From: a virus
Taxonomy: Duplodnaviria; Heunggongvirae; Uroviricota; Caudoviricetes
DNA: 64,000 bases
Strand: one strand, 5' to 3'
Virus record (IMG/VR): IMGVR_UViG_3300028571_000011
Shown: positions 11,985-62,104 of the stretch, piece by piece
How positions within the stretch are numbered: position 1 is the first letter of the stretch
Layout: each line of letters starts with the position of its first letter
Made by a program: the position numbers and the translations under genes
Notes under the pieces: generated by a model
Databases searched by the model: none
What the model was told of the DNA's origin: nothing
The model's input: only the letters and a program-made list of their open reading frames with translations

Positions 11985-13730
11985 ATGAACATGTCCAACT
12001 ACTCCAAGCACTTCAACTCCAACAAGACGCCGCAGAACGAGCCCATTCCGGGTCGTGACATGGTGCAGAACGCGGCGGGTGGCTTCAACTTCGCCGTTGA
12101 CGACTGGGCACGGCTCCGTCGTTTCCTGATCCTCGGTACCGAGGGTGGTTCCTTCCATCAGAAGGAACAGAAGCTGACGAAGGAGAACGCGCAGGCGGTC
12201 CTTCGCTGCATCAAGACCGATGGTCCACGTGCGGTCAAGGAGATCGTCACCATCTCGGTGGAGGGTCGTGCTCCGAAGAATGACCCTGCGATCTTCGCTC
12301 TGGCCATGGCGCTCAAGCTCGGTGACGAGGCAACTCGCCGCTTGGCTTCCGACGCTGTCCCTGACGTGTGCCGCATCGGCACCCATGTGTTCCAGCTTGC
12401 AGAGGCTGTGAAGGCGTTCGGTGGCTGGGGTCGTACGACCGCTCGTGCATTCGCCAACTGGTACAACAAGCAGACGCCGGACAAGCTGGCGCTCAACCTG
12501 CTGAAGTACCAGCAGCGTGACGGCTGGTCGCACAAGAACTTGCTGTCGAAGTCCCACGCAGGTGGTTCGGCTCCGACGAAGTCTCACGCTGCGATGTTCA
12601 GCTACGTCATGCGCAACGGTGACCTGTCTGCTCGCAAGGTGGAGCGCAAGGTCAAGGGTAAGGTTCTGTCGGTCGGTGACTACAGCGGTCACAGCCGTGC
12701 TGACCTCCCTCGCTTGATTGAGGGCTTCGAGAAGGTCCGTGAGGGCGGTCTCACGGAGAAGATGGTTGCGAAGCTCATTCGTGACTACGACCTTCCTCGT
12801 GAGGTGATCCCGACCCAGTTCTTGAACAGCAAGGACGTCTGGGATGCTCTGCTTCACGCTGGCAAGCTCGGCATGCCCATCGGTGCCCTTGTCCGCAACC
12901 TCAGCAAGATGACGACGATTGGTCTCATCGCTCCCTTGAGCGACGCCACGTCCTTCGTTGCCTCGAAGCTGGATAGCGAGGAAGCCATCAAGCATGGTCG
13001 CATGCATCCCCTGTCCATCCTGCTTGCGTCTCGTACGTATGCACAAGGACACGGCGAGAAGGGCTCGCTCCAGTGGAAGCCTGTTCCTCAGGTTCTCGAA
13101 GCTCTCGACAAGGCTTTCTACCATGGATTCAAGTCTGTGGAGCCCACTGGCCTGAAGCATCTGACCGCTGTGGACGTCTCGGGCTCGATGCACTCCAGCC
13201 GGGTAGCCGGTGGACTGGTAACGAGCGCTGAAGCAGCAGCAGCAGTGGCTCTGGTGACGGCGAACGTGGAAAAGAACCATCACATGGTTTGCTTCACGAA
13301 CGGCTCACAGGGTGCTGGCGAGTACAAGTTCGGCAATGGTGCTTCTCGCTGGAGCCAAGTGAACAGCGGCATCAGCCCCTTCGACATCAACCCGCGCATG
13401 CGGTTGTCGGAAGTGGCAGCGAAGACCCGGAACATGCCGTTCGGCGGCACGGACTGCGCTCTGCCGATGTTGTACGCCCTCAAGAACAAGATTGAGGTCG
13501 ACGTCTTCATGGTGCTGACCGACAACGAGACTTGGGCAAACCCAGAAGTCCACCCGTCACAGGCCCTCAAGCTGTACCGGCAGGAGATGCAGCGTCCCGC
13601 GAAGCTGGTTGTTTTGGCCTTCGAAGCTTCCAACAATACGATCGCTGACCCGAACGACAGCGGCATGATTGACATCGTCGGTCTGGATACGTCCACCCCC
13701 GATTTGATCTCTGCCTTCGTTCGTGCTTGA
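11985..13730 (+). CDS. rsr: Ro60/Rsr ortholog (TROVE domain + C-terminal vWA with DVSGSM MIDAS), Y RNA-binding protein
   Basis: PGRDMVQNAAGGFNF..RFLILGTEGGS.H at the N-terminus; vWA MIDAS at the C-terminus; ATG at 11985 within the listed ORF 11913..13730. Confidence 0.85.
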   Translation: MNMSNYSKHFNSNKTPQNEPIPGRDMVQNAAGGFNFAVDDWARLRRFLILGTEGGSFHQKEQKLTKENAQAVLRCIKTDGPRAVKEIVTISVEGRAPKNDPAIFALAMALKLGDEATRRLASDAVPDVCRIGTHVFQLAEAVKAFGGWGRTTARAFANWYNKQTPDKLALNLLKYQQRDGWSHKNLLSKSHAGGSAPTKSHAAMFSYVMRNGDLSARKVERKVKGKVLSVGDYSGHSRADLPRLIEGFEKVREGGLTEKMVAKLIRDYDLPREVIPTQFLNSKDVWDALLHAGKLGMPIGALVRNLSKMTTIGLIAPLSDATSFVASKLDSEEAIKHGRMHPLSILLASRTYAQGHGEKGSLQWKPVPQVLEALDKAFYHGFKSVEPTGLKHLTAVDVSGSMHSSRVAGGLVTSAEAAAAVALVTANVEKNHHMVCFTNGSQGAGEYKFGNGASRWSQVNSGISPFDINPRMRLSEVAAKTRNMPFGGTDCALPMLYALKNKIEVDVFMVLTDNETWANPEVHPSQALKLYRQEMQRPAKLVVLAFEASNNTIADPNDSGMIDIVGLDTSTPDLISAFVRA

Positions 13731-13735
13731 CTTCG

Positions 13736-13775
13736 CTGACAGGATCAGCTAAAACTGGTCCTGTCAGGTTTGCGT
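13736..13775 (+). terminator. hairpin after rsr (CTGACAGGA...TCCTGTCAG + GTTTGCG)
   Basis: 9-bp stem 6 nt after the stop; weak U tract. Confidence 0.4.
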
Positions 13776-13798
13776 GAAAACCGAATATGAAACACTTC

Positions 13799-13867
13799 GT
13801 GAGACGGTGCCGCCGTGCTTGTCACCAAGATTCGTCTTGGCAGACTGCTTGAATAACGGCACCGTCT
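13799..13867 (+). ncRNA. structured element: 12-bp perfect stem (GAGACGGTGCCG/CGGCACCGTCTC) with a nested hairpin
   Basis: perfect inverted repeat with an internal CCAAGA-TTCG-TCTTGG hairpin. Confidence 0.35.
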
Positions 13868-14010: not shown

Positions 14011-14039
14011 CTTAGCTTTTGACGAACCGAAGATTTGTA

Positions 14040-14092
14040 GGTTATCTTTTTGGAAGGAGTGGTCGCTGGTTCGAGTCCAGCCCTCCCCACCA
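14040..14092 (+). ncRNA. orphan tRNA 3' half (T-arm GCTGG TTCGAGT CCAGC + acceptor CCTCCCC-A-CCA)
   Basis: no complementary 5' acceptor upstream; the GGGGAGG partner lies downstream of Y6. Confidence 0.45.
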
Positions 14093-14095
14093 TAC

Positions 14096-14159
14096 GAGCC
14101 GAACGCAACCGCTGGGTTACCCTTGAAATGTACCCCCCAGCATCCGCAATCCCTTGCTC
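14096..14159 (+). ncRNA. Y RNA-like element Y6 (between the permuted tRNA halves)
   Basis: GAGCCGAACGCAACCGCTGGG...CCCAGCATCCGCAATCCCTTGCTC; compensatory GCTGGG/CCCAGC stem. Confidence 0.55.
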
Positions 14160-14167
14160 GTTCCCTT

Positions 14168-14200
14168 GGGGAGGTAGCTCAGTTGGTAGAGCACTAAACG
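14168..14200 (+). ncRNA. orphan tRNA 5' half (acceptor GGGGAGG + D-arm TAGCTCAGTTGGTAGAGC)
   Basis: perfect 7/7 complement to the 3' half at 14082..14088; no downstream T-arm. Confidence 0.45.
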
Positions 14201-14235
14201 TCTACGGTCATACCTTGTTCGTCATTCTTTTCTGA

Positions 14236-14336
14236 ACGCCCTTAGCTCAGTGGTAGAGCGGCACCTCGACAAGGTGAAGGTCACTGGTTCAATCCCAGTA
14301 GGGCGGTCACTGGTTCAATCCCAGTAGGGCGTACCA
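14236..14336 (+). tRNA. tRNA-Val(GAC) carrying a 26-nt tandem duplication of the T-arm/acceptor 3' segment
   Basis: ACGCCCT...anticodon loop TCGACAA...; GTCACTGGTTCAATCCCAGTAGGGCG occurs twice; second copy ends ...AGGGCGT-A-CCA. Confidence 0.6.
14280..14331 (+). repeat. tandem duplication (2 x 26 nt) within tRNA-Val(GAC)
   Basis: exact direct repeat at 14280..14305 and 14306..14331. Confidence 0.8.
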
Positions 14337-14343
14337 GTTCGTT

Positions 14344-14415
14344 GCGCTCGTAGCTCAGCGGTAGAGCATTCGGCTCATAACCGACCGTGCGTGGGTTCAA
14401 ATCCCTCCGGGCGCC
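14344..14415 (+). tRNA. tRNA-Met(CAT) copy 2
   Basis: GCGCTCG/CGGGCGC; anticodon loop CTCATAA; T-loop TTCAAAT. Confidence 0.7.
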
Positions 14416-14437
14416 CATTTCAAGTTCTTCAGTTTGC

Positions 14438-14499
14438 GAGCCGAATACGACCGAGGGTTACTTACCATTCAAGACACCCCTCAACAGTGAAACTTGCTC
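14438..14499 (+). ncRNA. Y RNA-like element Y7, followed by a weak hairpin + T-run
   Basis: GAGCCGAATACGACCGAGGG...CCCCTCAACAGTGAAACTTGCTC; follows the tRNA directly. Confidence 0.55.
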
Positions 14500-14537
14500 G
14501 CATCTTTTCGTGCGGTTTTAACCTAGTGTAAATTCGT

Positions 14538-14611
14538 GCGGGTGTGGTATAGTGGCCGTGCCTTAGCCTTCCAAGCTAATGACACCAGTTCGAGTCTGGT
14601 CATCCGCTCCA
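14538..14611 (+). tRNA. tRNA-Gly(TCC)
   Basis: GCGGGTG/CATCCGC; anticodon stem TTAGC/GCTAA; loop CTTCCAA; CCA. Confidence 0.75.
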
Positions 14612-14846: not shown

Positions 14847-15262
14847 GGGCTCAACCCGGTTTCGATTCGGGATGAAAAGCTAAGAAGTGCGTGTCGTGGT
14901 TGGCCGAAGGGCCACGTAAAAAATCGGTCAAAAACAATCAGCCAACGATAACATCGAAGGCGCTTCTTTCCGCATGGCTGCCTGAAAAGGTAGTCCTCGG
15001 TAAGAGGTGAGGGAACGGTTCTAGCGAACTTAGCTCCCCGTCGGGTCCAACAGAGAGCCTTCTGTAAAGGAACCCCGGCGTAAATCACTGAAGGCTAGGC
15101 GTTGATGGTGGTCGCGGCCATCAACGAGTAGAATCAAACAGCTGACCACCGAGTCTCGGACTCAACCTCATTGCCACGGTGGAGGTAAAAACTGCGGCTA
15201 CACACGTAGAGTTCTTCGTAATAGTCTTGAAGACGGGGGTTCGATTCCCCCTGAGTCCACCA
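14847..15262 (+). ncRNA. ssrA: tmRNA (SsrA); tag reading frame encodes (A)ANDNIEGASFRMAA
   Basis: 5' GGGCTCAACCCGGTTTCGATTCGGGAT tRNA-like end; 3' GACGGGGGTTCGATTCCCCCTGAGTCCACCA; tag ORF 14941..14985. Confidence 0.75.
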
Positions 15263-15931: not shown

Positions 15932-16006
15932 GCGGGTGTAGCTCAGTGGTAGAGCATCTCGTTGCCAACGAGAATGTCATGGGTTCGAATCCCATCATCC
16001 GCTCCA
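15932..16006 (+). tRNA. tRNA-Gly(GCC)
   Basis: GCGGGTG/CATCCGC; anticodon stem TCTCG/CGAGA; loop TTGCCAA; CCA. Confidence 0.85.
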
Positions 16007-16022
16007 TTTCAGATAGAAGACA

Positions 16023-16409
16023 ATGCCTCTTAAAGACCCAGTTGCGAGACGAGAGTACCAGCGAAACTACAGCAGAAATCGGCTGCATACCGACCCCATT
16101 GCAAAAGCAATGCACGCGCAACGAGTTAAGAAAAACAATAAGAAAGCAAGAGAAGCCATCCGGGCTTTGGTTGACGTCTTCAGAAAAGACGGTTGCCTGC
16201 TTTGCGGAGAAAGCGACGCGTGTTGTTTAGATGCCCACCACTTAGACCCGTCATCGAAAGATTTCAGTATAGGTGAGGCTGCGAGAAGGCTCCTTACCCT
16301 CAAAAAGGTAAGGGAGGAAATTACAAAGTGCGTCTGTGTCTGTAGAAATTGCCATGCTAAGATACATGCCGGTTCTCTAGTTATAGAAAGAAACCTTTGC
16401 GGGGTATAG
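16023..16409 (+). CDS. HNH homing endonuclease
   Basis: CLLCGE...CCLDAHHLDP...CRNCHAKIH HNH motifs. Confidence 0.75.
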   Translation: MPLKDPVARREYQRNYSRNRLHTDPIAKAMHAQRVKKNNKKAREAIRALVDVFRKDGCLLCGESDACCLDAHHLDPSSKDFSIGEAARRLLTLKKVREEITKCVCVCRNCHAKIHAGSLVIERNLCGV

Positions 16410-16471
16410 AAATGGTATCTTATGGGCCTCATAAGCCCAAGTTCTCCGTTCAAGTCGGAGTCCCGCATCCA
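16398..16471 (+). tRNA. tRNA-Met(CAT) copy 3 (initiator, elongator or tRNA-Ile2 cannot be told apart)
   Basis: TGCGGGG/TCCCGCA; anticodon stem TGGGC/GCCCA; loop CTCATAA; T-arm CTCCG TTCAAGT CGGAG; CCA. Confidence 0.65.
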
Positions 16472-16477
16472 TTCAAC

Positions 16478-16536
16478 GAGCCGAATACGACCGAGGGTTA
16501 CCTGCATAAACTACCCCTCAACTGTGAACCTTGCTC
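16478..16536 (+). ncRNA. Y RNA-like element Y8
   Basis: GAGCCGAATACGACCGAGGGTTACC...CCCCTCAACTGTGAACCTTGCTC; follows the tRNA. Confidence 0.55.
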
Positions 16537-16578
16537 GTTGTCCCTTTCTCAAATGACCAGTTTAAAGGTGAAGAAGTA

Positions 16579-16818
16579 ATGGCCACAAAGAAGGTCGCAC
16601 CAGACTTTGGCAAGTCAGTCACAGACGCCACAGCCCTCCTTCGCGCGAAGGGTTACAAAGCTGAAGCCATCGACCTCTCTGCTGCTGCAGACCTCCCACA
16701 GGAGGAACTGGTGCTTGGACTCATCGGCATCATGAACTCAATGGCAAGGCGAATCTCTGCCATCGAAGAGAATCAACTCGCAGTAGAGAGACTCGCCAGA
16801 CACGGCGGAAAGAAGTGA
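16579..16818 (+). CDS. hypothetical protein
   Basis: ATG with a GGTGAAGAAG RBS; part of ORF 16531..16818. Confidence 0.45.
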   Translation: MATKKVAPDFGKSVTDATALLRAKGYKAEAIDLSAAADLPQEELVLGLIGIMNSMARRISAIEENQLAVERLARHGGKK

Positions 16819-17237
16819 CGGTAGATTACTTCTCGAAGGCCGACTGGTCTGCGGTTAGCTCATGTGCTGGTTACCCAGCAGTCAAATGCCCTGAACACCC
16901 TAAGGCATGGTCTACAGGATGGATTCACGTGCATCGACTTGTGGCAGAGCACAAGCTGGGTCGCTTACTTACTGTAAGCGAAGTAGTTCACCATGTGAAT
17001 GGTATAAAGGATGACTACAGCTTCGACAACATTGAGGTAATGGAGGACAACAAAGCACACAGAAAGGAGCATGCTAAAAGCATGACAAGAGCCGCCGTAA
17101 TGGTTAAGTGTGCTTTTTGTTCTACTCTCTTTGAAAGAGAGAAAAGACAAACAGCCAAAGCTAAAGGTCAGAAAGCCGACTACTGCAACAGAACTTGTAG
17201 TGGAAGGGCAAACGGACCGAAAAGTAATCGGAAGTAG
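16815..17237 (+). CDS. HNH endonuclease
   Basis: HVHRLVAEHKLGR...VVHHVNGIKDD..N...H. Confidence 0.7.
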   Translation: MTVDYFSKADWSAVSSCAGYPAVKCPEHPKAWSTGWIHVHRLVAEHKLGRLLTVSEVVHHVNGIKDDYSFDNIEVMEDNKAHRKEHAKSMTRAAVMVKCAFCSTLFEREKRQTAKAKGQKADYCNRTCSGRANGPKSNRK

Positions 17238-17244
17238 ATAATGC

Positions 17245-17636
17245 GCCTCCGTATCGGCTCTGACTTCTAATCTGAGTACCGTAACTGGACTTATGCAGGT
17301 TCGAGTCCTGCCGGGGGCACCATCTACGACCACGACACTCATTGGGTGTAGAACGGCCAAATGGAACGAGTTCGACCCTCGTATAGTCCACCAGTGGGCT
17401 ATGGTAGCGGACCGAGCCGGGTTCGACTCCCGGTACATCCACCAATGTCAGTGCGCTCGTAGTTCAGCTGGACGATTAAACGCGATTGGGTCACTACGTC
17501 AACTCTTTCTGCACTCGCAGCTGCTCAGGTACACACCAGAAGACTACAGTTATCACGCGCCCGTATTCCCTCGGTTTCCTAAACCGTTGAAAGGATAGTT
17601 GGATACACACAAGTTCGAGTCTTGTCGGGCGCGCCA
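17245..17636 (+). pseudogene. cluster of about 4 degenerate tRNA-like units, each ending in a T-arm + acceptor + CCA (ends at 17322, 17393, 17444, 17636)
   Basis: canonical T-arms (GCAGG TTCGAGT CCTGC; ACGAG TTCGACC CTCGT; CCGGG TTCGACT CCCGG; ACAAG TTCGAGT CTTGT), but no canonical D/anticodon arms could be folded. Confidence 0.4.
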
Positions 17637-17771
17637 AGTTAGAGAAGCAATGTGGTGTGTTTTCTGTTCGGTTCGTAAACTATCTCTTGACTCTCAAGGA
17701 AGAATTCGTTAGAAGGGGTGTATGCAAGTTGACCTCGTCAAGGTGCATGCATTCTAAGGTAGAGGTACGTC

Positions 17772-18356
17772 ATGACCGCTCAAATTCTCGTCCTCAACAA
17801 GCAATGGGCTCCCGTCGGGATCGCTGACTTGGAGCGTGCAATGGGTCTGCTCTGCACTGGAGCAGCCAAGGCGTTGGACAAGGAACATCAGATGTACGAC
17901 TTCGCGTCGTGGTCTGAACTCCGTGCTGAGTATGGGGACGCCACCGTCTCGACGCCCAACAGGGTGATCAAGATTCCTACCATCTTGGTGCTTCAGGTCT
18001 ACGACCGTCTGCCGCACATGCGAGTTCGTTTCTCGCGCAATGCTGTCTACCTGCGTGACAACTTCACGTGTCAGTACTGCGCCAAGAAGTTCCCTCGTCA
18101 GTCACTGAACCTTGACCATGTCGAGCCTCGTTCTCGTGGCGGTCGCACCAGCTGGACCAACATCGTTTGTGCCTGCTACCCGTGCAACACCAAGAAGGGA
18201 GACAAGACGCCTGCTGAAGCCGGTATGCCTCTGCTCAAGAAGCCCGCCAAGCCTCGTGTCAGTGGTCTGAATCTCGGTCGTGCAACGCCAGCTGAGTGGC
18301 TGCCGTTCATCGACCCAGTGTCAGCTGCATACTGGAATTCGGAACTCGAAGAGTGA
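17772..18356 (+). CDS. HNH endonuclease (McrA-like)
   Basis: CQYC...LNLDHVEPRSRGG..N..CACYPCNTKK. Confidence 0.7.
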   Translation: MTAQILVLNKQWAPVGIADLERAMGLLCTGAAKALDKEHQMYDFASWSELRAEYGDATVSTPNRVIKIPTILVLQVYDRLPHMRVRFSRNAVYLRDNFTCQYCAKKFPRQSLNLDHVEPRSRGGRTSWTNIVCACYPCNTKKGDKTPAEAGMPLLKKPAKPRVSGLNLGRATPAEWLPFIDPVSAAYWNSELEE

Positions 18357-18357
18357 A

Positions 18358-18410
18358 TGTCCTCAGCGCGTCGATGTAGAAGCCGATAACGGCCAAGCAC
18401 GAAGGACACA
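18358..18410 (+). repeat. hairpin element B: AATGTCCTCAGCGCGTC...GAAGGACAC (second copy)
   Basis: same 17-nt 5' flank and 9-nt 3' flank as 10852..10886; different interior. Confidence 0.5.
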
Positions 18411-18435
18411 TCCGGTAACGGGTGACGTCGCCTTG

Positions 18436-18469
18436 GAACCCAGCCCACAAAGCTGGGTTCTGTCTTTTC
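18436..18469 (+). terminator. rho-independent terminator (GAACCCAGC-CCACAA-GCTGGGTTC + TGTCTTTTC)
   Basis: 9-bp stem + U-rich tail. Confidence 0.6.
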
Positions 18470-27238: not shown

Positions 27239-27309
27239 AGGAGGGGTACAGGGTACGGATTGGTCTCCAAAACCGATCTTGAAGGGTTCGAGTCCCCTTC
27301 CTCCTGCCA
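27239..27309 (+). tRNA. tRNA-Trp(CCA), short D-arm
   Basis: AGGAGGG/TCCTCCT; anticodon stem TTGGT/ACCGA; loop CTCCAAA; T-loop TTCGAGT; CCA. Confidence 0.45.
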
Positions 27310-27378
27310 CAAAGCGTCACGCCCCAAACCAAAATGGGCGTTTAGCTTACCTCAAAACAAAGCTGACCGCCCCTTCGC

Positions 27379-27453
27379 TGGGGTGTCGTTTAACTGGTAG
27401 GACAATGGACTTTGATTCCATTTATCTGGGTTCAACCCCCAGCGCCCCGTCCA
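27379..27453 (+). tRNA. tRNA-Gln(TTG)
   Basis: TGGGGTG/CGCCCCG; anticodon stem ATGGA/TCCAT; loop CTTTGAT; CCA. Confidence 0.7.
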
Positions 27454-27493
27454 CTTGTTTTCAAAACCGAATAGATAGTTGTTTAGTGCACGG

Positions 27494-27569
27494 TGTGGTG
27501 TAGCTCAATTGGTAGAGCGTCAGATTCTGATTCTGAATGTCGTAGGTTCGATCCCTGCCACCACAACCA
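27494..27569 (+). tRNA. tRNA-Gln(CTG)
   Basis: TGTGGTG/CACCACA; anticodon stem TCAGA/TCTGA; loop TTCTGAT; CCA. Confidence 0.8.
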
Positions 27570-27594
27570 AAGCAAGCTAGGCGATATGGAATGT

Positions 27595-27670
27595 GGTAGC
27601 CGTGGCAGAGAGGTTATGCACTGGATTGTGGATCCGGGCTACGCCCGTTCGAATCGGGTCGGCTACACCA
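27595..27670 (+). tRNA. tRNA-His(GTG) with an encoded G-1
   Basis: G+GTAGCCG/CGGCTAC; anticodon stem CTGGA/TCCGG; loop TTGTGGA; CCA. Confidence 0.7.
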
Positions 27671-27727
27671 AACTCGTCGAGGCACTAAACATTGGTCAAT
27701 GTGCCTCTTCCTATGTCACCCTGATAC

Positions 27728-28486: not shown

Positions 28487-28501
28487 GGTCATGGACTCGT
28501 A

Positions 28502-28576: not shown

Positions 28577-28669
28577 CACCACGCTGAGATATCTCAGCAT
28601 AGTGCTTCCGTAGAAACTTTCTAATAGCATTGTCAGACACACCTTCGAAAGTTACGTAAGTTACCACTT

Positions 28670-53028: not shown

Positions 53029-54489
53029 ATGACTTTTCCAATCTCTCCCACTCTTCGTGTCATGCTGGAAGCTATCGTCGCTTCTGGTGGTCGTCCTGCC
53101 ATCATCGGCGGCTCCGTTCGTGACTGGGTCTTGGGTCTGGAGCCCAAGGACATCGACGTCGAGGTCTACGGCTTGGACGTGGCTGACTTGGAACTCGCCC
53201 TGTCGAAGTTCAAGGTTGACGCTGTCGGTCGTGCCTTCGGTGTCTTCAAGGTGACCATCGAAGGTGAGACGTTTGACGTTTCGCTTCCTCGTCGCGAGTC
53301 CAAGGAAGGCCATGGCCACCGTGGCTTCATGGTGTCCTCTGACCCGACGATGACTCCCGAAGAGGCTGCTCTTCGACGTGACTTCACGGTCAACACTCTT
53401 GGCTGGGACTTCATCGACGGCAAGCTGATGGACTTCCACGGCGGCATGGCTGACATCAAGGCCAAGGTTCTGCGTCACACCAGCCCAGCTTTCGCTGAGG
53501 ATCCTCTTCGTGTGCTGCGTGGCTGTCAGTTCGCTGGTCGCTTCGGCTTCACCATGGACGGAGACACCATCGACATGTGCCTCAGCCTCACTGAGGAGCT
53601 TCGTACGCTCCCTGTAGAGCGGCTGTGGACTGAGTGGGTCAAGCTCCTGACGAAGAGCCCCAAGCCCTCTGTGGGCCTGACAGCGCTGGTTGAGACCGGT
53701 GCCATCGAGGTCTTCCCCGAAGTGAAGGCGCTGCTGTACGTTCCTCAGGAGCCTGAGTGGCATCCAGAAGGTCAGGACCACCCGTTGGGCAGTCTCTGGG
53801 TGCACAACTGCATGGTCACGGACATGGCTGTTCGTGTGCTGGACGATGATGGTGTCACTGACGCTGAGGAGCGTTTGATCATCATCCTCGGTGCCTTCTG
53901 TCACGACTTCGGCAAGCCTGCCACGACTGTGTTCGAGCGGGATCGCTGGCGGTCTTTGGCCCATGAGGAAGCCGGTGAAGCTCCGACTCGAAGCTTCCTG
54001 ACCCGGATTGGTGCGCCGCACCACATCATCGAGGCAGTTGTGCCTCTGGTGATGCAGCACCTCAAGCCTTTCCACTTGGCTCGTGACAAGGCTAGCAGTG
54101 GTTCTGTCCGTCGCTTGGCGCTGAAGGTTCCTCTGGAGCGTCTGTGTCGTGTGGGTCGTGCTGACTTCTTGGGTCGGACCACTCCTGACGCTCTGGCCAT
54201 CACGGACAGCCGTGAGGTTGAGGAGACGAAGTGGCTTCTGGAACGGGCAATCGAACTTGCGGTTCGTGACTCTGCTCCTCAGCCTCTCGTCATGGGTCGT
54301 CATCTGATCGATGCTGGCATGAAGCCGAGCCGAGAGTTCGGCGAGGTCCTCAAACGAGCGTTCGAGTACCAGCTGGACGGCTTCATCTTCGACGAGGAGT
54401 CGGCCCTTCGCTTCGTGAAGGAGAAGGTTGTGGTGACGGATGATGGCCATGGGCAGGTTGTGGATGGCTGGACCGGTACTTGCGGCTGA
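53029..54489 (+). CDS. cca: CCA-adding tRNA nucleotidyltransferase with a C-terminal HD domain
   Basis: IIGGSVRDWVLGLEPKDIDVEV polymerase-beta head; RRDFTVNTL; HD motif FCHDFGKP. Confidence 0.85.
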   Translation: MTFPISPTLRVMLEAIVASGGRPAIIGGSVRDWVLGLEPKDIDVEVYGLDVADLELALSKFKVDAVGRAFGVFKVTIEGETFDVSLPRRESKEGHGHRGFMVSSDPTMTPEEAALRRDFTVNTLGWDFIDGKLMDFHGGMADIKAKVLRHTSPAFAEDPLRVLRGCQFAGRFGFTMDGDTIDMCLSLTEELRTLPVERLWTEWVKLLTKSPKPSVGLTALVETGAIEVFPEVKALLYVPQEPEWHPEGQDHPLGSLWVHNCMVTDMAVRVLDDDGVTDAEERLIIILGAFCHDFGKPATTVFERDRWRSLAHEEAGEAPTRSFLTRIGAPHHIIEAVVPLVMQHLKPFHLARDKASSGSVRRLALKVPLERLCRVGRADFLGRTTPDALAITDSREVEETKWLLERAIELAVRDSAPQPLVMGRHLIDAGMKPSREFGEVLKRAFEYQLDGFIFDEESALRFVKEKVVVTDDGHGQVVDGWTGTCG

Positions 54490-59106: not shown

Positions 59107-60135
59107 ATGACACCAGTAACACGTAAGCTCGCTTCAATCGTTTCCATCTTGTCTGTGGAGCCGGTCCCCAACGCTGACCGCTTGGAGAAGATCGGTAGTC
59201 TCGGCTACCAAGTCGTTTCAGAGAAGGGGCGATGGTCTGTCGGAGACATGGCTGTCTACTTCGAGGCCGACTCTGTGCTGCCGGACATCGACGCCCTTCG
59301 CTGGGTCTGGACCCCGAAGGACACGCCACCAGACGTCAAGGTGCCTCGTCCAGCGGACCAGCGTCTCCGTGCCGTCCGTCTTCGCGGTTGCCTCTCCATG
59401 GGCATCTTGCTGAAGTTGCCAGAGCTTGGACTTGATCCGAAGGACTTCAAGACTGGTGACGATGTCACGAGCTTGCTTGGAGTCACCCAATTTGAGGAAG
59501 ACTCCTCGGATGAAGCCTTCCGTGCGCCATTCCCGTCCTTCGTGTCGAGGACCAGCGAGATGCGCGCTCAGAGCCTCCCAGACGTCCTGAAGGAGTTGGC
59601 TGGCAAGGCTTGGGTGGCCACGCTCAAGATCGACGGGCAGAGCCTCACAGCTTATCTAGATGCTGGTGATCTTCACGTCACTGGTCGGAAGCATTCGATC
59701 CTTGAGTCCGATGTGCCGCACTGGCGAGTGGCCCGGAAGTACAAGCTGCAGGATGTCCTGAGAGAAAACCCTCACCTCGTGATCCAAGGTGAAGTCGCAG
59801 GCCCCGGCATCTTGGGCAACAAGCTCGAACTCAAGGAGCACGACTTCTTCGTGTACAACATCCACCACAAGCAGGAGGACCGACTGTTCCTTGATGCTGA
59901 GATGCGCGAGTTCTGTGCTGACCATGGGCTGAAGGCTGTACCGAAGGTTGCTGAAGGTGTCGAGTTCTCCAAGACGATGGATGAGCTTCAGGAGCTTTCA
60001 GCTGGCAAGTACGAAGGTACCAACCGGAATCGGGAAGGCATCGTTGTGCGGCCTCGTGATGAATTGATCCGATCAGACACCGTCGGCAAGTGGCTGTCCT
60101 TCAAGATGATCAACAACTCTTCCCTCGTGAAGTGA
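59107..60135 (+). CDS. ATP-dependent RNA ligase (covalent nucleotidyltransferase superfamily)
   Basis: motif I TLKIDGQS (KxDG); motif IV-like EGIVVRP; motif V-like KWLSFK; ATG at 59107 inside ORF 58840..60135. Confidence 0.65.
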   Translation: MTPVTRKLASIVSILSVEPVPNADRLEKIGSLGYQVVSEKGRWSVGDMAVYFEADSVLPDIDALRWVWTPKDTPPDVKVPRPADQRLRAVRLRGCLSMGILLKLPELGLDPKDFKTGDDVTSLLGVTQFEEDSSDEAFRAPFPSFVSRTSEMRAQSLPDVLKELAGKAWVATLKIDGQSLTAYLDAGDLHVTGRKHSILESDVPHWRVARKYKLQDVLRENPHLVIQGEVAGPGILGNKLELKEHDFFVYNIHHKQEDRLFLDAEMREFCADHGLKAVPKVAEGVEFSKTMDELQELSAGKYEGTNRNREGIVVRPRDELIRSDTVGKWLSFKMINNSSLVK

Positions 60136-60141
60136 GTAACT

Positions 60142-61170
60142 ATGACCAAAGAAATTGATGCTGAACAGATGGTTGCCGAGCTTCGACTTGCTGCTGAGCA
60201 GGTTATGACTCATTGTCTCCAAAACACGACATGGGCGTTTGAGGCTCGACAAGCAGTAAGTGGGCTGCAAGCAGCCCTAGACAAGTCTGCTCCCATCGCC
60301 GGTCGGTGGTGTCTGGCGAGCGAGCGGGATGAGGCGGTGCGCGAACGTGACGACGCCCAAGCGTGCTTCCAAAAGGCTTGGACGGTGGCGACCGAGGCCA
60401 ACACCCGCGCTGATGTGTCTGACGCCGCTGCACGCGCACTTGGTGTCGACTTCGATCGTGTGCTGCGCGAGTGCAGCGCCGCCACCGCCCGCGCTGAGAG
60501 GGCTGACGTGATCTGTGTCGATCAGTACAAAGAGTACAGCAACGCAAAGGAGCGCTGGCGAGTCGAGTTTGCGGCAATGTTTGAGCGGATGAGTAAGGCA
60601 TCAGACCGTGTTGCCATCTGGCGACAACACTGTACCTGCGGCACGAGCCACGGCCAGCCAAAAGCATACACGGTAGACCAGCTTCGTAGTGCTTTCGCTG
60701 AAGCCTGCTTGTCCCCTGAAACGCCGTTCTTCAAAGAGTGGCCTGCCATTGCCGCTGCCGTTGAACGTGCACTGGCGAGCGAAAACAAGCGAAAGGAGAT
60801 GGTCGCTGAGGTGTGGGGCGTTGAGATGCGCAACGGCGGATGGTTGGGCCTCGGTGCGGCACTGACCGGGTCAGGCTCGTCAGTCGACATCGTCAAGGCA
60901 CACCGCTTCTCGACAAAGGAGGAGGCTGAGAAGGTGGCGAGTGAATTCTCCTTTGCTGGCGGGATGGCAAAGCGTATCGACGGCGAAGCTGTTGTCAGAA
61001 TCGATGAACTCGCCAAAGAGCGCGATATCGCAAACGCAAACGCTGTTGCATGGGAGGCACGTGCTGAGAAAGCGGAGGCGGTTGTTGAGAGGTGGCGCGA
61101 CGAAGCCGTGATGCGCGAACGCAAGGTGGACGAGTTGACCATCCGCGCCGTCGCCGCCGAGCGCACATAA
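60142..61170 (+). CDS. Ala/Arg-rich hypothetical protein (compositional outlier, higher GC)
   Basis: 342 aa; GC visibly higher than its neighbours. Confidence 0.45.
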   Translation: MTKEIDAEQMVAELRLAAEQVMTHCLQNTTWAFEARQAVSGLQAALDKSAPIAGRWCLASERDEAVRERDDAQACFQKAWTVATEANTRADVSDAAARALGVDFDRVLRECSAATARAERADVICVDQYKEYSNAKERWRVEFAAMFERMSKASDRVAIWRQHCTCGTSHGQPKAYTVDQLRSAFAEACLSPETPFFKEWPAIAAAVERALASENKRKEMVAEVWGVEMRNGGWLGLGAALTGSGSSVDIVKAHRFSTKEEAEKVASEFSFAGGMAKRIDGEAVVRIDELAKERDIANANAVAWEARAEKAEAVVERWRDEAVMRERKVDELTIRAVAAERT

Positions 61171-61237
61171 AAGGCGATCCGTCGCCTCGCTGTGACCTTC
61201 ACTGTGACACATGTGCGGAGAAGGCTGAGGAGAAATC

Positions 61238-62104
61238 ATGAACACTGCCGTCGTCATCTACCACAAAGACTGCCCAGATGGGCTCACAGCCGCCGTTGCG
61301 GCATGGCTGAAGCTGAAGGACACCGCTGTCTATATCCCGAGGCACTACAACGAGCCACGCGACGACGACGCCTACAGGGGCAAGGACGTCTACGTCTTGG
61401 ACTTCTCATTCTCGTTGGAAGCGACACGACGGGTCGATGAAGTGGCCAAGAGCCTGACCATCCTCGACCACCACAAGACGGCTTTCGACAACCTGAATGG
61501 CACGAAGTACGCGGAGCGCCTTCGCATGGATCAGTCCGGCGCGCGTCTGGCGTGGGAGTTCTTCCATCCCGGCATCCCGTGCCCCAACATCGTCGACTAC
61601 GTCGAGGACAACGATTTGTGGCGGCACAAGCTCCCGCACTGGGAAGAGGTGAAGGTTGCTGGAGAGATGGTGTCCCTCAAAGACCCGGACGCAATCAACC
61701 GGTGGGCGGCTTTCGCTGACCGGTTGGCCAACGACTTCAACGGCGTTGTCGTGCAGGGCACAGCCATCGTCGAGTACCGCAACATCCTCATCCAGCGCAT
61801 GTGCAATGAACCCGGCTTCGCGCTCTTGGCAGGCCACAAGGTTCCCTGCGTCAACACCGGAAGCTGGCAGTCCGAGGTCGGCAACCTCCTGAGCAAGGAG
61901 CATCCGTTCGCGATCATCTGGCGCGCGGACAAGGAGGGGCGCTTCCTCTACTCCCTGCGCTCCGACAACACCCGGCACGAAGCCGTTGACGTCTCTGAGG
62001 TGGCCAAACTCTTCGGCGGCGGCGGGCACAAGAATGCAGCTGGCTTCACCAGCAATGCACCGCCCATGATGGTGAAACCAGACTCGGTCATGGTGCGTTC
62101 GTAA
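61238..62104 (+). CDS. DHH/DHHA1 phosphoesterase (NrnA-like nanoRNase / pAp phosphatase)
   Basis: DHH motif LDHHKT; Asp-rich N-terminal motifs; DHHA1 GGGGHKNAAGF. Confidence 0.8.
   Translation: MNTAVVIYHKDCPDGLTAAVAAWLKLKDTAVYIPRHYNEPRDDDAYRGKDVYVLDFSFSLEATRRVDEVAKSLTILDHHKTAFDNLNGTKYAERLRMDQSGARLAWEFFHPGIPCPNIVDYVEDNDLWRHKLPHWEEVKVAGEMVSLKDPDAINRWAAFADRLANDFNGVVVQGTAIVEYRNILIQRMCNEPGFALLAGHKVPCVNTGSWQSEVGNLLSKEHPFAIIWRADKEGRFLYSLRSDNTRHEAVDVSEVAKLFGGGGHKNAAGFTSNAPPMMVKPDSVMVRS

What the first reader, a model, noticed from the sequence alone, without database searches (positions are those of the whole stretch)
11985..62104. Phage-borne RNA repair and quality-control suite: Rsr/Ro60, tmRNA, CCA-adding enzyme with HD domain, RNA ligase, NrnA-like DHH phosphoesterase
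Rsr (11985..13730), tmRNA (14847..15262), Cca with an HD phosphohydrolase domain (53029..54489), an Rnl-type RNA ligase (59107..60135) and a DHH/DHHA1 nanoRNase-like enzyme (61238..62104) sit together with about 30 tRNAs. Many of those tRNAs do not encode the full CCA. Cca-HD healing plus Rnl sealing is the logic T4 uses (Pnkp + Rnl1) to reverse host anticodon-nuclease attack. Rsr with Y RNAs suggests an added RNA-decay or QC layer. The DHH enzyme could also degrade pAp, nanoRNA or linear/cyclic oligonucleotide signals.
Basis: partly seen in the sequence, partly recalled or inferred. Interest (0 to 1): 0.7.

Follow-up and report, generated by a model that had tools for sequence, protein, structure and literature searches.

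The report
Phage RNA-maintenance genes with Y-RNA array
A large uncultivated phage carries about 30 tRNAs, a tmRNA, an Ro60/Rsr protein with eight previously unlisted Y-RNA-like elements, a CCA-adding enzyme, an RNA ligase and a DHH nuclease; this gene kit is already known from big phages, and the way small Y RNAs are threaded between the tRNAs is the new part.

Summary
All five proteins, the tmRNA and about 30 tRNAs are real and lie at the stated coordinates. Three details of the finding are wrong or too loose.
- 27 of 30 tRNAs, and the tmRNA, do encode CCA.
- The ligase is a nick-sealing Rnl5 type (Naegleria/Deinococcus), not Rnl1.
- The DHH enzyme is not NrnA. Homologues about 40% identical are annotated NrnB/COG2404.

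No polynucleotide kinase or RNA 3'-phosphatase was found in the window, so a T4-style heal-and-seal pathway is incomplete here. Relatives do carry a Pnk-like kinase and a metallophosphoesterase. The genes span 50 kb in this window. In three relatives, Rsr and Cca-HD lie 4-5 kb apart, which supports a real link between them.

The added result is that rsr sits inside a co-directional RNA island holding three YrlA-type Y RNAs and five free mini-Y hairpins wedged between tRNAs. One YrlA has an internal NCCA and a sixth mini-Y copy nested in it. All carry the published Rsr-binding motif, and covariation supports the folds. A sequence-only scan of IMG/VR found the mini-Y signature next to rsr.

Verdict: this is a known kind of suite (Iyer 2021; Chen 2014) in a divergent lineage, with a new Y-RNA arrangement. 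Interest is moderate.

The parts
8258..11902 (+). tRNA block 1: 16 ARAGORN tRNAs plus one weak tRNA-like element (8258-8330)
   Evidence: ARAGORN; Rfam tRNA hits; encoded CCA checked
9054..9116 (+). Mini-Y hairpin (YrlB-like) between tRNA-Arg(ACG) and tRNA-Lys(CUU)
   Evidence: nhmmer E 7e-15; alignment A4; covariation test
10011..10703 (+). HTH + PD-(D/E)XK endonuclease, likely a homing endonuclease inside the tRNA array
   Evidence: Pfam PDDEXK_5 2.2e-26
10783..10835 (+). Mini-Y hairpin directly after tRNA-Asn; the most degenerate copy
   Evidence: nhmmer E 4.8e-8; A4
11596..11731 (+). YrlA-like Y RNA #1: terminal stem with GAGCCGAA, T-arm, 7-bp acceptor-like hairpin, D-arm
   Evidence: nhmmer E 8e-11; fold z = -4.0; weak Rfam YrlA hit
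11747..11815 (+). Mini-Y hairpin between YrlA #1 and tRNA-Thr(CGU)
11953..11978 (+). rsr leader hairpin: the Rsr-binding helix in permuted order (CTTGCTCAC-agg-TGTGAGCCGAAAG), 7 nt before the ribosome-binding site
   Evidence: The same layout, with compensatory changes, is present in L003.
11985..13730 (+). Rsr / Ro60 orthologue (TROVE ring + vWA)
   Evidence: relatives at 50-71% identity
13877..14012 (+). YrlA-like Y RNA #2 (compact 'type A')
   Evidence: Rfam YrlA, full-length model, 20.8 bits; motif order; alignment A1; nhmmer E 4.5e-24. Its own fold is not significant (z = -1.4).
14021..14224 (+). YrlA-like Y RNA #3 ('type B'): tRNA-like module with an internal ACCA, followed by a nested mini-Y (14094-14160)
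   Evidence: Rfam YrlA 35 bits, E 6e-6; A2; 17 compensatory pairs, 86% paired against 38-52% in slid controls
14236..14611 (+). tRNA-Val(GAC), tRNA-Met and tRNA-Gly(UCC), with a mini-Y hairpin at 14436-14500. Val and Met lack an encoded CCA.
14847..15262 (+). One-piece tmRNA: G3.U pair, tag ending ...ANDNIEGASFRMAA, encoded ACCA
15932..16537 (+). tRNA-Gly(GCC), tRNA-Met, and a mini-Y hairpin (16476-16537) 4 nt after the tRNA-Met
16815..18462 (+). End of the island: HNH_3 endonuclease (16815-17237), odd tRNA-like element (17245-17319), tRNA-Ser(CGA) (17344-17444), HNH endonuclease (17772-18356), terminator-like hairpin (18434-18462)
   Evidence: The HNH gene is conserved in relatives.
27239..28743 (+). 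tRNA block 2 (Trp, Gln x2, His, Phe, Cys), with an HNH_3 endonuclease gene at 27728-28486
53029..54489 (+). Class II tRNA nucleotidyltransferase (Cca-like) with a C-terminal HD phosphohydrolase domain
   Evidence: Catalytic motifs are invariant across five lineage members.
59107..60135 (+). Rnl5-family ATP-dependent nick-sealing RNA ligase (N-terminal OB fold + nucleotidyltransferase)
   Evidence: PDB NgrRnl 1.1e-36 over the full length; TIGR02306; phrog_968
61238..62104 (+). Stand-alone DHH-DHHA1 phosphoesterase; homologues about 40% identical are annotated NrnB/COG2404

Best explanation
WHAT IT IS
The window is part of the accessory, non-structural arm of a large uncultivated phage. It holds genes for supplying and maintaining RNA.

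The core is a co-directional RNA island of about 10 kb (8.2-18.5 kb). I infer that it is transcribed as long precursors and cut up by the host's tRNA-processing enzymes. The predicted products are:
- about 24 tRNAs, with 6 more in a second block at 27 kb;
- one tmRNA;
- three YrlA-type Y RNAs;
- five free YrlB-like mini-Y hairpins, each wedged between tRNAs or tRNA-like modules, plus a sixth copy nested inside the third YrlA.

HOW IT MOST LIKELY WORKS (all steps inferred)
- Rsr is encoded in the middle of the island. It binds the shared GAGCCGAA / CUUGCUC bulged helix of these RNAs to form Ro-Y RNPs. As in Deinococcus and Salmonella, these would direct a 3'-5' exonuclease at misfolded or structured RNA.
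- Cca-HD adds CCA to the three tRNAs that lack it and repairs trimmed CCA ends. By analogy with M. smegmatis YrlA, it also maintains CCA on Y RNAs cleaved by RNase P. This would explain why rsr and cca are neighbours in the relatives.
- The Rnl5 ligase reseals 3'-OH/5'-PO4 nicks in base-paired RNA.
- The DHH enzyme clears short RNA or nucleotide products.
- The tmRNA frees stalled ribosomes.
- Net effect: translation keeps running in an infected cell whose RNA is under attack or in turnover.

SHOWN VERSUS INFERRED
- Shown: gene and RNA identities, motifs, covariation, and linkage.
- Inferred: every activity, the processing of the precursor, Rsr binding, and the physiological purpose.
For: PROTEIN AND RNA IDENTITIES
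-.
- Active-site motifs of Cca are intact and invariant down to 38% identity: GGxVRD, DxD, RRD, EDPLR for the transferase, and the H...HD...H...H...D set for the HD domain.
- Rnl5 carries the KIDG motif aligned to NgrRnl KLDG. DHH carries DxD, DHH and GGGGH.

Y RNAs
- YrlA-model hits lie just after rsr, both here and in relatives.
- The motif order GCCGAAG -> T-arm -> D-arm recurs in all five syntenic intervals.
- Mini-Y family: 90.9% of cells paired against 37-43% in slid controls; covariation 0.339 against 0.116 in shuffles, 0 of 500 shuffles as high.
- Type B: 17 compensatory pairs, 0 of 500 shuffles as high.
- All 26 mini-Y hits in the window plus 84 loci are on the rsr strand.
- GAGCCGAA occurs 12 times against 2.6 expected. 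All nine + strand copies fall on a Y element or the rsr leader helix.
- A pattern-only scan of IMG/VR gave 8 loci. Four have rsr 80-500 nt downstream on the same strand.

LINKAGE
- Rsr and Cca-HD are 4-5 kb apart in L002, L004 and L006, and 5.4 kb apart in L016. DHH is near the island in L004 and L016.

PRECEDENT
- M. smegmatis YrlA is cleaved by RNase P and receives CCA in vivo. Every species studied also has a short hairpin Y RNA. The Rsr-binding motif is GNCGAA(N0-1)G (PMC4201824).
- Jumbo-phage RNA-repair kits including TROVE, CCA-adding enzyme and ligases are described in PMC7824862.

TRANSCRIPTION
- The only strong + strand terminator-like site in the island is at its end, 18434-18462.
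Against: - No expression, processing or binding data exist. Everything functional is inferred.
- In this window Cca, Rnl5 and DHH lie 39-48 kb from rsr, among about 60 unrelated or unknown genes. No operon links them here.
- Among 80 more distant viral Rsr loci, only one has Cca within 8 kb and few have tRNA arrays. The linkage is therefore lineage-specific, and within that lineage it may simply be inherited synteny.
- The relatives' ligase is not an orthologue of the window's Rnl5.
- In L016 the DHH gene sits beside ThyX and a family-A DNA polymerase. That fits nucleotide metabolism as well as it fits RNA work.
- The fold of type A is not significant on its own (z = -1.4).
- Covariation rests on 5-14 related sequences, and the structures were derived from these same sequences.
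- No SmpB was found in the window.
- Attribution to a phage is indirect, because no structural gene lies in the window.
Confidence: 0.55

Rival explanations
1. The kit is a T4-style counter-defence against anticodon nucleases. The Cca HD domain heals 2',3'-cyclic phosphate ends, the ligase reseals the broken tRNA, and the phage tRNAs replace what cannot be repaired.
For: - The HD domain is homologous to that of E. coli 'multifunctional CCA addition/repair protein' (PRK10885, 189 bits), and its metal-ligand residues are invariant.
- A ligase is present.
- Relatives carry a CthPnkp-like kinase (L004) and Metallophos genes (L002, L006). The lineage as a whole therefore has all the heal-and-seal parts.
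- Published view that jumbo phages counter tRNA cleavage this way (PMC7824862).
Against: - No 5'-kinase was found in the window: there is no credible Walker A motif, no homologue of the L004 kinase, and no kinase domain in any ORF scanned.
- The ligase is Rnl5, characterised as a sealer of nicks in duplexes. It is not the Rnl1 type that acts on anticodon loops.
- The supporting premise about missing CCA is false.
- Cca and the ligase are 4.6 kb apart with unrelated genes between them (SPFH, PD-(D/E)XK).
Confidence: 0.2
2. A machine for demolishing host RNA and salvaging nucleotides. Rsr-Y RNPs tether a host 3'-5' exonuclease (PNPase) so that it degrades structured host RNA such as rRNA. The DHH enzyme converts the resulting nanoRNAs to mononucleotides for phage replication. 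The tRNAs, Cca and tmRNA simply keep phage translation independent of the host.
For: - Rsr, Y RNA and PNPase form a degradation machine for structured RNA (summarised in PMC4201824).
- NrnB-family enzymes are 3'-5' exoribonucleases on short RNAs, and in some clades on long ones (PMC12709177). Homologues of the DHH protein are annotated NrnB/COG2404.
- In L016 the DHH gene is adjacent to ThyX and DNA polymerase A.
- There are eight Rsr-binding-type helices on seven predicted RNAs, which would allow a high RNP dose.
Against: - There is no evidence of a phage-encoded exonuclease partner. The DHH subfamily cannot be assigned by profile or fold.
- This model does not explain the ligase or the Rsr-Cca linkage.
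- In the window DHH is 47 kb from rsr.
Confidence: 0.2
3. There is no shared pathway. The five genes are independent accessory 'morons' gathered in the hypervariable arm of a big phage genome. Their co-residence reflects genome architecture. DHH may instead destroy cyclic oligonucleotide or c-di-NMP defence signals.
For: - The genes spread over 50 kb with about 60 unrelated or unknown ORFs between them.
- Each gene occurs alone in hundreds of unrelated phages: Rsr in 355, the ligase in 340, Cca in 485, DHH in 116.
- Only 1 of 80 distant Rsr loci has Cca nearby.
- The same region also holds NAD/ADP-ribose conflict genes: Macro, ART-PolyVal and YAcAr.
- DHH enzymes in jumbo phages have been proposed as counter-signal phosphodiesterases (PMC7824862).
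Against: - Rsr-Cca-HD adjacency recurs in L002, L004 and L006 and independently in L016.
- A ligase of a different family occupies the slot after Cca in L002. That suggests selection for the function, not inheritance of the gene.
- rsr is physically embedded among the tRNAs and Y RNAs on one strand.
- M. smegmatis YrlA is a Cca substrate in vivo.
Confidence: 0.25

Closest known systems
Jumbo-phage RNA-repair and translation-support gene sets (Iyer, Anantharaman, Krishnan, Burroughs & Aravind 2021, PMC7824862). Catalogued example: Sinorhizobium phage phiM12.
   Same: - tRNA arrays with RNA ligases, a CCA-adding enzyme, a TROVE/Ro protein with a tRNA-like partner, Macro/NADAR/Nudix enzymes and DHH phosphodiesterases, all read as counter-measures to attacks on the translation apparatus.
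- phiM12 has a homologue of this Rnl5 ligase (30.6% identity), a Cca (31% identity), a Macro domain, a metallophosphoesterase and an HNH gene within 30 kb.
   Different: - phiM12 lacks Rsr and tmRNA in that region. It has an Rnl1 ligase and peptidyl-tRNA hydrolases that this window lacks.
- This window shows no kinase and no RNA 3'-phosphatase.
- Protein identities to any catalogued phage are only 30-43%, and there is no DNA-level match.
Rsr-YrlA/YrlB ribonucleoproteins of bacteria and mycobacteriophages (Chen et al. 2014, PMC4201824; Rfam RF02553)
   Same: - Y RNAs lie on the same strand within 4 kb of rsr.
- They have the GNCGAA(N0-1)G motif at the 5' side of the terminal helix and a tRNA-like module ordered T-arm, acceptor-like hairpin, D-arm.
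- A long Y RNA is accompanied by a short hairpin Y RNA.
[quoted passage not shown]
   Different: - All hits fall below Rfam's gathering score: 20-35 bits here and up to 48.5 in relatives, against a cutoff of 69.
- There are eight Rsr-binding-type helices on seven predicted RNAs, instead of two.
- The short ones are placed between genuine tRNAs.
- One YrlA has a genome-encoded NCCA followed by a complete nested mini-Y in place of the acceptor loop.
- rsr itself sits inside the tRNA array. In mycobacteriophage ET08 it does not.
Rnl5 nick-sealing RNA ligases (Deinococcus DraRnl, Naegleria NgrRnl)
   Same: - N-terminal OB domain plus C-terminal nucleotidyltransferase.
- Full-length match to NgrRnl at E 1.1e-36.
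- The motif I lysine lies in KIDG.
   Different: - The TIGR02306 score of 126.5 is below the equivalog cutoff of 151.
- The gene is phage-borne.
- The substrate is unknown. The family's physiological role is itself uncharted.
T4 Pnkp + Rnl1 tRNA restoration pathway
   Same: A phage-encoded ligase together with a candidate 3'-end-healing phosphohydrolase (the HD domain of Cca), in a genome rich in tRNAs.
   Different: - No polynucleotide 5'-kinase was found.
- The ligase belongs to a different family with a different substrate preference.
- The genes are not adjacent.
E. coli-type multifunctional Cca (class II nucleotidyltransferase + HD)
   Same: The same domain order. The best NCBIfam match is PRK10885. 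The HD residues are conserved.
   Different: - It scores 189 bits against an equivalog cutoff of 451.
- The best full-length PDB match is 3wfo, deposited as 'Poly A polymerase' (525 aa). From my own recollection this may be the Aquifex CC-adding enzyme.
- CCA-adding, CC-adding and A-adding specificity cannot be told apart from sequence here.

Membership tests
Ro60/Rsr | TROVE (HEAT-repeat ring) followed by a vWA domain | tested here: met
   Pfam TROVE 3.3e-38 and vWA_Ro60 5.2e-55. PDB Ro60 1.9e-113 and Rsr 2e-98. The NCBIfam Rsr equivalog scores 448 bits, below its cutoff of 900, so this is a family-level assignment.
Ro60/Rsr | A Y RNA encoded nearby on the same strand | tested here: met
   Three YrlA-like elements within 400 nt upstream and 500 nt downstream of rsr
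YrlA (Rfam RF02553) | Reaches Rfam's gathering score of 69 bits | tested here: not met
   35, 20.8 and 20.3 bits in the window; 43.6 and 48.5 bits in L006
YrlA (Rfam RF02553) | tRNA-like module in the order T-arm, acceptor-like hairpin, D-arm, closed by a terminal helix, and not overlapping tandem tRNAs | tested here: met
   None of the three overlaps an ARAGORN tRNA.
YrlA (Rfam RF02553) | GNCGAA(N0-1)G Rsr-binding motif on the 5' strand of the terminal helix (Chen 2014) | tested here: met
   GCCGAAAAG at 11603 is only a near-match, because the G follows two bases later. GCCGAAG at 13882 is an exact match. In type B the terminal helix carries the near-match ACCGAAG (14025-14031), while the exact match GCCGAACG at 14098 lies in the nested hairpin.
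YrlA (Rfam RF02553) | Bound by Rsr; modified by or cleaved by tRNA enzymes | not testable with these tools
   Needs RIP, EMSA or an RNase P assay
tmRNA | Covariance-model match, tRNA-like domain with a G3.U pair, tag ORF ending in AA-stop, 3' ACCA | tested here: met
   Rfam 137 bits; ARAGORN tag; sequence inspected directly
tmRNA | SmpB partner | tested here: not met
   No SmpB domain in any ORF scanned. The host SmpB is presumably used. Small ORFs were not scanned exhaustively.
Class II CCA-adding enzyme with HD domain | Head-domain motifs (GGxVRD, DxD, RRD, EDxxR) and an HD metal-binding motif | tested here: met
   The Pfam HD score of 22.8 bits is just above the cutoff of 22.
Class II CCA-adding enzyme with HD domain | Equivalog-level score, and CCA (as opposed to CC, A or poly(A)) specificity | tested here: inconclusive
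   PRK10885 at 189 bits against a cutoff of 451; PcnB subfamily at 114 bits. Specificity needs an assay.
Rnl5 RNA ligase | N-terminal OB domain plus C-terminal adenylyltransferase with a KxDG lysine | tested here: met
   Pfam PHA02142 and RNA_ligase; NgrRnl match across residues 5-318 at E 1.1e-36; KIDG
Rnl1 (T4 tRNA ligase) | Rnl1-type nucleotidyltransferase with the C-terminal tRNA-specificity domain (Pfam RNA_lig_T4_1) | tested here: not met
   No RNA_lig_T4_1 hit. The only PDB hits are Rnl5, plus a marginal Rnl2 hit at E 0.008.
T4-type heal-and-seal pathway | Polynucleotide 5'-kinase and a 2',3'-cyclic or 3'-phosphatase encoded with the ligase | tested here: not met
   No kinase in the window. 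The only candidate phosphoesterase is the Cca HD domain. The Macro domain at 4405-4878 is not an RNA end phosphatase. The rest of the genome was not seen.
NrnA (NanoRNase A) | Profile match to NrnA | tested here: not met
   NCBIfam NrnA at 15 bits against a cutoff of 350. PDB sequence matches cover only the GGGH region.
DHH/DHHA1 superfamily | The DxD, D, DHH and D motifs and GGGH; a two-domain fold | tested here: met
   AF2 model with pLDDT 95.9. Foldseek matches to pAp phosphatase, NrnA, Pde2, DhhP, PggH and GdpP at 10-17% identity.
NrnB / COG2404 | Assignment to COG2404; 3'-5' exonuclease polarity | tested here: inconclusive
   Homologues about 40% identical are named NrnB/COG2404 by JGI. 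No NrnB profile or solved structure was available here, and no phage member is discussed in PMC12709177.

The most novel reading that the evidence does not exclude
The tRNA array doubles as a production line for Y RNAs.
- Mini-Y hairpins are placed between tRNAs, and one is nested behind an encoded NCCA inside a YrlA. RNase P and tRNA 3'-end processing would therefore release a whole set of Rsr ligands from a single transcript.
- The nested type-B RNA would become a two-piece, CCA-tailed, tRNA-like Y RNA, comparable to permuted tmRNAs. The phage Cca-HD would maintain that CCA tail. This would explain why rsr and cca travel together.
- Rsr would also feed back on its own synthesis through a permuted copy of its binding helix that abuts the rsr ribosome-binding site.
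Probability: 0.3. Interest if true: 0.65.

Novelty: new variant of a known kind. Interest (0 to 1): 0.45.

Why it matters
The gene kit itself is not news. Large phages are already known to carry tRNAs, ligases, CCA-adding enzymes, Ro/TROVE proteins and DHH enzymes.

Three points add value.
- The finding's mechanistic claims are corrected. The tRNAs mostly encode CCA, the ligase is an Rnl5 nick sealer, and no end-healing kinase is present. Anyone planning assays would therefore choose different substrates.
- There is evidence from relatives that rsr and cca-HD are a linked pair in one phage lineage. Together with the M. smegmatis precedent, this gives a concrete and testable idea of what Cca does for Ro-Y RNPs.
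- This is a compact natural system of one protein and seven predicted small RNAs in a phage. The rules of Rsr-Y RNA recognition, tRNA-enzyme-driven Y RNA processing and possible autoregulation could be tested in it. The biological role of bacterial and phage Ro60 remains poorly understood.

Tried and rejected
DEAD ENDS
- DNA-level relatives in catalogued phages: none beyond single tRNAs.
- Single-protein Rsr scan of IMG/VR: no confirmed relative. The alignment-based scan worked.
- Search for a Pnkp-like kinase or phosphatase in the window: only chance Walker A matches. phrog_335 'phosphatase' is a Macro domain. The relatives' AAA_33, Metallophos, NUDIX and NADAR genes have no counterpart here.
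- Search for SmpB and other RNA enzymes among about 70 ORFs: none found.
- Assigning DHH to a subfamily by profile, PDB sequence or fold: only superfamily-level matches.
- ORF 60142-61170 (342 aa), between the ligase and DHH: no Pfam, PHROG or NCBIfam hit. It is Ala/Glu-rich and looks like a coiled coil, so it was not pursued.
- Large ORFs at 1-1320 and 19551-20804: no phage homologue.
- Sequence match of the L002 288-aa ligase to solved structures: none.

CORRECTIONS ALONG THE WAY
- The RNAalifold consensus for type B mis-registered the terminal stem. I replaced it with a hand-derived structure.
- My first helix-3 register for the mini-Y was off by one column and was corrected.
- Rfam YrlA hits that straddle two adjacent genuine tRNAs (for example L004 7910-8000 and L002 8408-8522) were discarded as tandem-tRNA artefacts, following Chen et al.

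IDEA REJECTED
- That type B is the chance junction of two decayed tRNAs. The two acceptor strands are mutually complementary and covary across five copies.

Full report
OBSERVATION

- Rsr (11985-13730) has TROVE and Ro60-type vWA domains. It matches solved Ro60 and Rsr structures at E 1e-113 and 2e-98.
- The tmRNA (14847-15262) is called by ARAGORN and by Rfam at 137 bits. It has the G3.U alanine identity pair, a tag ending ...ANDNIEGASFRMAA, and an encoded ACCA.
- Cca (53029-54489) has the class II nucleotidyltransferase head, the RNA-binding domain and an HD domain.
- The ligase (59107-60135) has an N-terminal OB domain and an RNA_ligase domain.
- The DHH protein (61238-62104) has DHH and DHHA1 domains with intact DxD, DHH and GGGGH motifs.
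- All five fall in existing PHROG families.
- ARAGORN finds 27 tRNAs and Rfam adds two weak ones. I identified a class-II tRNA-Ser(CGA) at 17344-17444 by hand. That makes about 30.

CORRECTIONS TO THE OBSERVATION

- The statement that many tRNAs lack CCA is wrong. 26 of the 29 tRNA elements checked carry CCA after the discriminator, as does the tmRNA, and tRNA-Ser does too. Only Lys-UUU (9329), Val-GAC (14236) and Met (14344) lack it.
- The ligase belongs to the Rnl5 family.
  - It gives a full-length match to Naegleria NgrRnl at E 1.1e-36, and only a marginal Rnl2 hit.
  - Its best NCBIfam model is the Deinococcus DRB0094 ligase.
  - Rnl5 enzymes seal 3'-OH/5'-PO4 nicks in duplexes whose 3'-OH strand is RNA. 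Their physiological role is described as uncharted (PMC7261155, PMC5397189).
- The DHH protein is not NrnA. It scores 15 bits against a cutoff of 350.
  - Its homologues about 40% identical are annotated NrnB/COG2404 by JGI.
  - NrnB enzymes are 3'-5' exoribonucleases (PMC12709177).
  - A confident AF2 model (pLDDT 95.9) matches the stand-alone DHH-DHHA1 enzymes only generically, at 10-17% identity.
- The genes do not truly 'sit together'. Rsr and the tmRNA lie in the tRNA island. Cca, Rnl5 and DHH lie 39-48 kb further on.

ORIGIN

- The window has no DNA-level relative among 50,697 catalogued phages.
- Its proteins are 30-43% identical to the best phage hits.
- An identical 14.7 kb contig exists in an ENA metagenome.
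- Attribution to a phage is indirect. It rests on:
  - the PHROG hits;
  - an 865-aa vWA protein (phrog_2426) found in 504 phage records against one weak plasmid hit;
  - four homing-endonuclease genes inside the tRNA arrays;
  - Rsr relatives on IMG/VR viral contigs.
- No structural gene lies in the window. Several large ORFs have no homologue at all.

LINKAGE

Rsr homologues at 57-67% identity lie on metagenomic contigs from 6 kb (L003) up to 180-380 kb.
- In L002, L004 and L006 the order is: tRNA array, rsr, 1-2 kb of RNA genes, more tRNAs, an HNH gene, then Cca-HD. Rsr and Cca are 4-5 kb apart.
- The window shares Rsr, the HNH gene, Cca, DHH and the vWA gene with these relatives at 52-67% identity. 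About 35 kb, including the inverted vWA block, lies between the HNH gene and Cca.
- L004 has the DHH orthologue about 1.6 kb upstream of the tRNA array, and also an AAA_33 kinase. That kinase matches PDB 4gp6, 4jst and 4mde. From my own knowledge these are the kinase domain of Clostridium thermocellum Pnkp.
- L002 and L006 have NUDIX, NADAR and Metallophos genes after Cca. L002 has a 288-aa PF09414 ligase that is not an orthologue of the window's Rnl5.
- A more distant viral contig, L016, again has Cca-HD, Rsr and DHH on one strand within 11 kb. There DHH sits next to ThyX and DNA polymerase A.
- Among 80 other IMG/VR Rsr loci, none besides L016 has Cca within 8 kb, and only five have five or more tRNAs.
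- In summary, the Rsr-Cca link is real but specific to this lineage. Links to the ligase and to DHH are weaker.
- Cca's transferase and HD motifs are invariant across all five sequences, down to 38% identity.

END HEALING

- No credible Walker A kinase exists in any frame.
- About 70 ORFs scanned against Pfam, PHROGs or NCBIfam gave no kinase, Metallophos, 2H or RtcB domain.
- The phrog_335 'phosphatase' at 4405-4878 is a Macro domain.
- A T4-style pathway is therefore incomplete within the window. The lineage does own the missing parts, so they may lie elsewhere in this genome.

Y RNAs: THE MAIN ADDITION

YrlA-type RNAs
- A permissive Rfam scan gave sub-threshold YrlA hits directly after rsr: 14058-14195 at 35 bits and 13891-13997 at 20.8 bits.
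- Relatives gave stronger hits in the same place: L006 at 43.6 and 48.5 bits, L003 at 34-35 bits.
- In all five syntenic intervals between rsr and tRNA-Val(GAC), the same ordered pattern recurs. The published Rsr-binding motif GNCGAA(N0-1)G (PMC4201824) is followed by a T-arm and then a D-arm.
- The window has three YrlA-type RNAs:
  - 11596-11731: its fold has z = -4.0, with a 7-bp acceptor-like hairpin;
  - 13877-14012: the compact type A. Its own fold is not significant;
  - 14021-14224: type B.
- Type B places several elements after the acceptor 3' strand, in this order: a conserved NCCA, a complete extra hairpin, the acceptor 5' strand, then the D-arm.
  - The NCCA is present in 5 of 5 close copies and in 7 of 9 copies when distant loci are included.
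  - My full structure has 86% of cells paired against 38-52% in slid registers.
  - It has 17 pairs with compensatory changes against 7.4 +/- 1.8 in shuffles, with 0 of 500 shuffles as high.
  - The caveats are that only five sequences were used and that the structure was derived from one of them.

Mini-Y hairpins
- The extra hairpin is a free-standing module. Its consensus is CGAGCCGAA-N-GCAAC-NG-AGGGTTATC-loop-CCCCTCA-ACCGC-NATCC-CTTGCTCG.
- It has six copies in the window, all on the + strand: 9054, 10783, 11747, 14094 (the nested one), 14436 and 16476. Each lies 4-20 nt after the end of a tRNA or tRNA-like module.
- On 14 copies from five loci, 90.9% of cells pair against 37-43% in slid controls. 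Eight pairs show compensatory changes. The covariation score is 0.339 against 0.116, with 0 of 500 shuffles as high.
- All 26 profile hits in the window plus 84 loci are on the rsr strand.
- GAGCCGAA occurs 12 times in the window against 2.6 +/- 1.7 expected. All nine + strand copies fall on a Y element or the rsr leader helix.
- As an independent test, I scanned IMG/VR for the RNA signature alone. It returned eight loci:
  - four have rsr 80-500 nt downstream on the same strand;
  - two more are short stretches with tRNA arrays and YrlA-like RNAs, one of them from a contig already known to encode Rsr;
  - two were not confirmed by the profile.
- The alignment-based scan confirmed 438 Rsr-encoding stretches among IMG/VR's 2.9 million contigs. 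The association therefore cannot be chance.

Precedent
- Chen et al. showed that M. smegmatis YrlA, which has a 7-bp acceptor stem, is cleaved by RNase P and receives CCA in vivo, with both halves still bound to Rsr.
- They also showed that every species examined has a short hairpin Y RNA as well.
- The window's RNAs are therefore a variant of a known system. They are more numerous, they are interleaved with tRNAs, and one is nested.

MECHANISM

I commit to the following, at confidence 0.55.
- The island is a co-directional transcription unit. The only strong + strand terminator-like site is at 18434-18462.
- Host tRNA-processing enzymes cut it into tRNAs, the tmRNA and Y RNAs.
- Rsr binds the shared bulged helix.
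- Cca-HD completes the three tRNAs that lack CCA, repairs CCA ends, and maintains CCA on cleaved YrlA.
- Rnl5 reseals 3'-OH/5'-PO4 nicks in paired RNA.
- DHH clears small RNA or nucleotide products.
- The tmRNA rescues stalled ribosomes with host SmpB.
- Identities, motifs, covariation and linkage are shown. All activities and the purpose are inferred.

Rivals
- Host-RNA demolition and nucleotide salvage, at 0.2.
- No shared pathway, with DHH possibly an anti-signalling phosphodiesterase, at 0.25.

COMPARISON WITH WHAT IS KNOWN

- Iyer et al. 2021 already describe jumbo-phage kits with tRNAs, RtcB, Rnl1 and Rnl2 ligases, kinases and phosphoesterases, RlaP, CCA-adding enzyme, TROVE with a tRNA-like partner, and DHH phosphodiesterases.
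- phiM12 shows a catalogued example, but without Rsr or tmRNA.
- Bxz1-like mycobacteriophages carry Rsr, but in ET08 it is not embedded in a tRNA array.
- The suite is a new member of a known kind. The Y-RNA arrangement is a new variant. Overall interest is moderate.

Noticed in passing
window 11953-11978; L003 about 2385-2420: Seven nucleotides before the rsr ribosome-binding site, the Rsr-binding helix appears in permuted order (CTTGCTCAC-agg-TGTGAGCCGAAAG). L003 has the same layout with compensatory changes (CATGCTCCAC-attcc-GTGGAGCCGAGG). L002, L004 and L006 instead have a normal mini-Y 14-80 nt upstream of the rsr ATG. This may be an Rsr autoregulation site.
   Followed up: partly
window 13731-13875: The 145 nt directly after the rsr stop codon are very strongly structured (z = -5.85 for 13731-13890). 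They contain a perfect 13-bp hairpin and a second long hairpin (GAGACGGTGCCG...CGGCACCGTCTC). These could be processing sites or a further ncRNA. Conservation in relatives was not checked.
   Followed up: no
window 17245-17319 and 17344-17444: 17344-17444 is a class-II tRNA-Ser(CGA) with a long variable arm. ARAGORN missed it, and Rfam reported it only as a weak 'tmRNA' hit. 17245-17319 is a tRNA-like element with good acceptor and T arms and an encoded CCA, but almost no D-arm; its anticodon may be UCU.
   Followed up: partly
window 10011-10703, 16815-17237, 17772-18356, 27728-28486: Four endonuclease genes (one HTH + PD-(D/E)XK, two HNH_3, one HNH/HNH_5) are inserted among the tRNA genes. 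The 17772-18356 HNH gene is conserved at the same position in L002, L004 and L006.
   Followed up: partly
window 4405-4878, 28763-30130, 30856-31491 (-), 34841-35230: The window also holds conflict genes related to NAD and ADP-ribose: a Macro domain (labelled 'phosphatase' in PHROGs), an ART-PolyVal ADP-ribosyltransferase with a YunG-like N-terminus, a YAcAr/SLOG protein, and a stand-alone receiver domain.
   Followed up: no
window 18500-53000, compared with L004 16681-21344: In L004 the vWA gene directly follows Cca on the same strand. In the window the vWA block (19.5-25.7 kb) is inverted, and about 35 kb of mostly unknown genes separates the HNH gene from Cca. This is a large rearrangement or insertion within the lineage.
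   Followed up: partly
L002 17802-18668: A 288-aa PF09414 RNA ligase occupies the slot after Cca in L002. It has no detectable similarity to the window's Rnl5 and no sequence match in the PDB. This may be a non-orthologous replacement of the ligase function.
   Followed up: partly
window 60142-61170: A 342-aa Ala/Glu-rich protein that looks like a coiled coil lies between the ligase and DHH. It has no hit in Pfam, PHROGs or NCBIfam. It was also called as a gene on the independent contig L001.
   Followed up: no
window 25556-27004 and 38354-40645: Two PcfJ-like proteins are present. The first is fused to LRV/HEAT repeats. Their function is unknown.
   Followed up: no
window 63216-63887, compared with L001 11979-12650: The otherwise matching metagenome contig L001 has a 223-aa gene here. 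The same frame in the window contains four stop codons, and only a 104-aa ORF is listed. This indicates a frameshift, a pseudogene or an assembly difference.
   Followed up: no
L062 10385-10830, L054 7545-7785, L024 1705-1925: More distant viral Rsr loci also carry type-B-like Y RNAs, with a tRNA-like module and a long insertion after the acceptor 3' strand. L054 and L024 keep GCCA at that position and L062 does not. The nested architecture is therefore broader than this lineage.
   Followed up: partly
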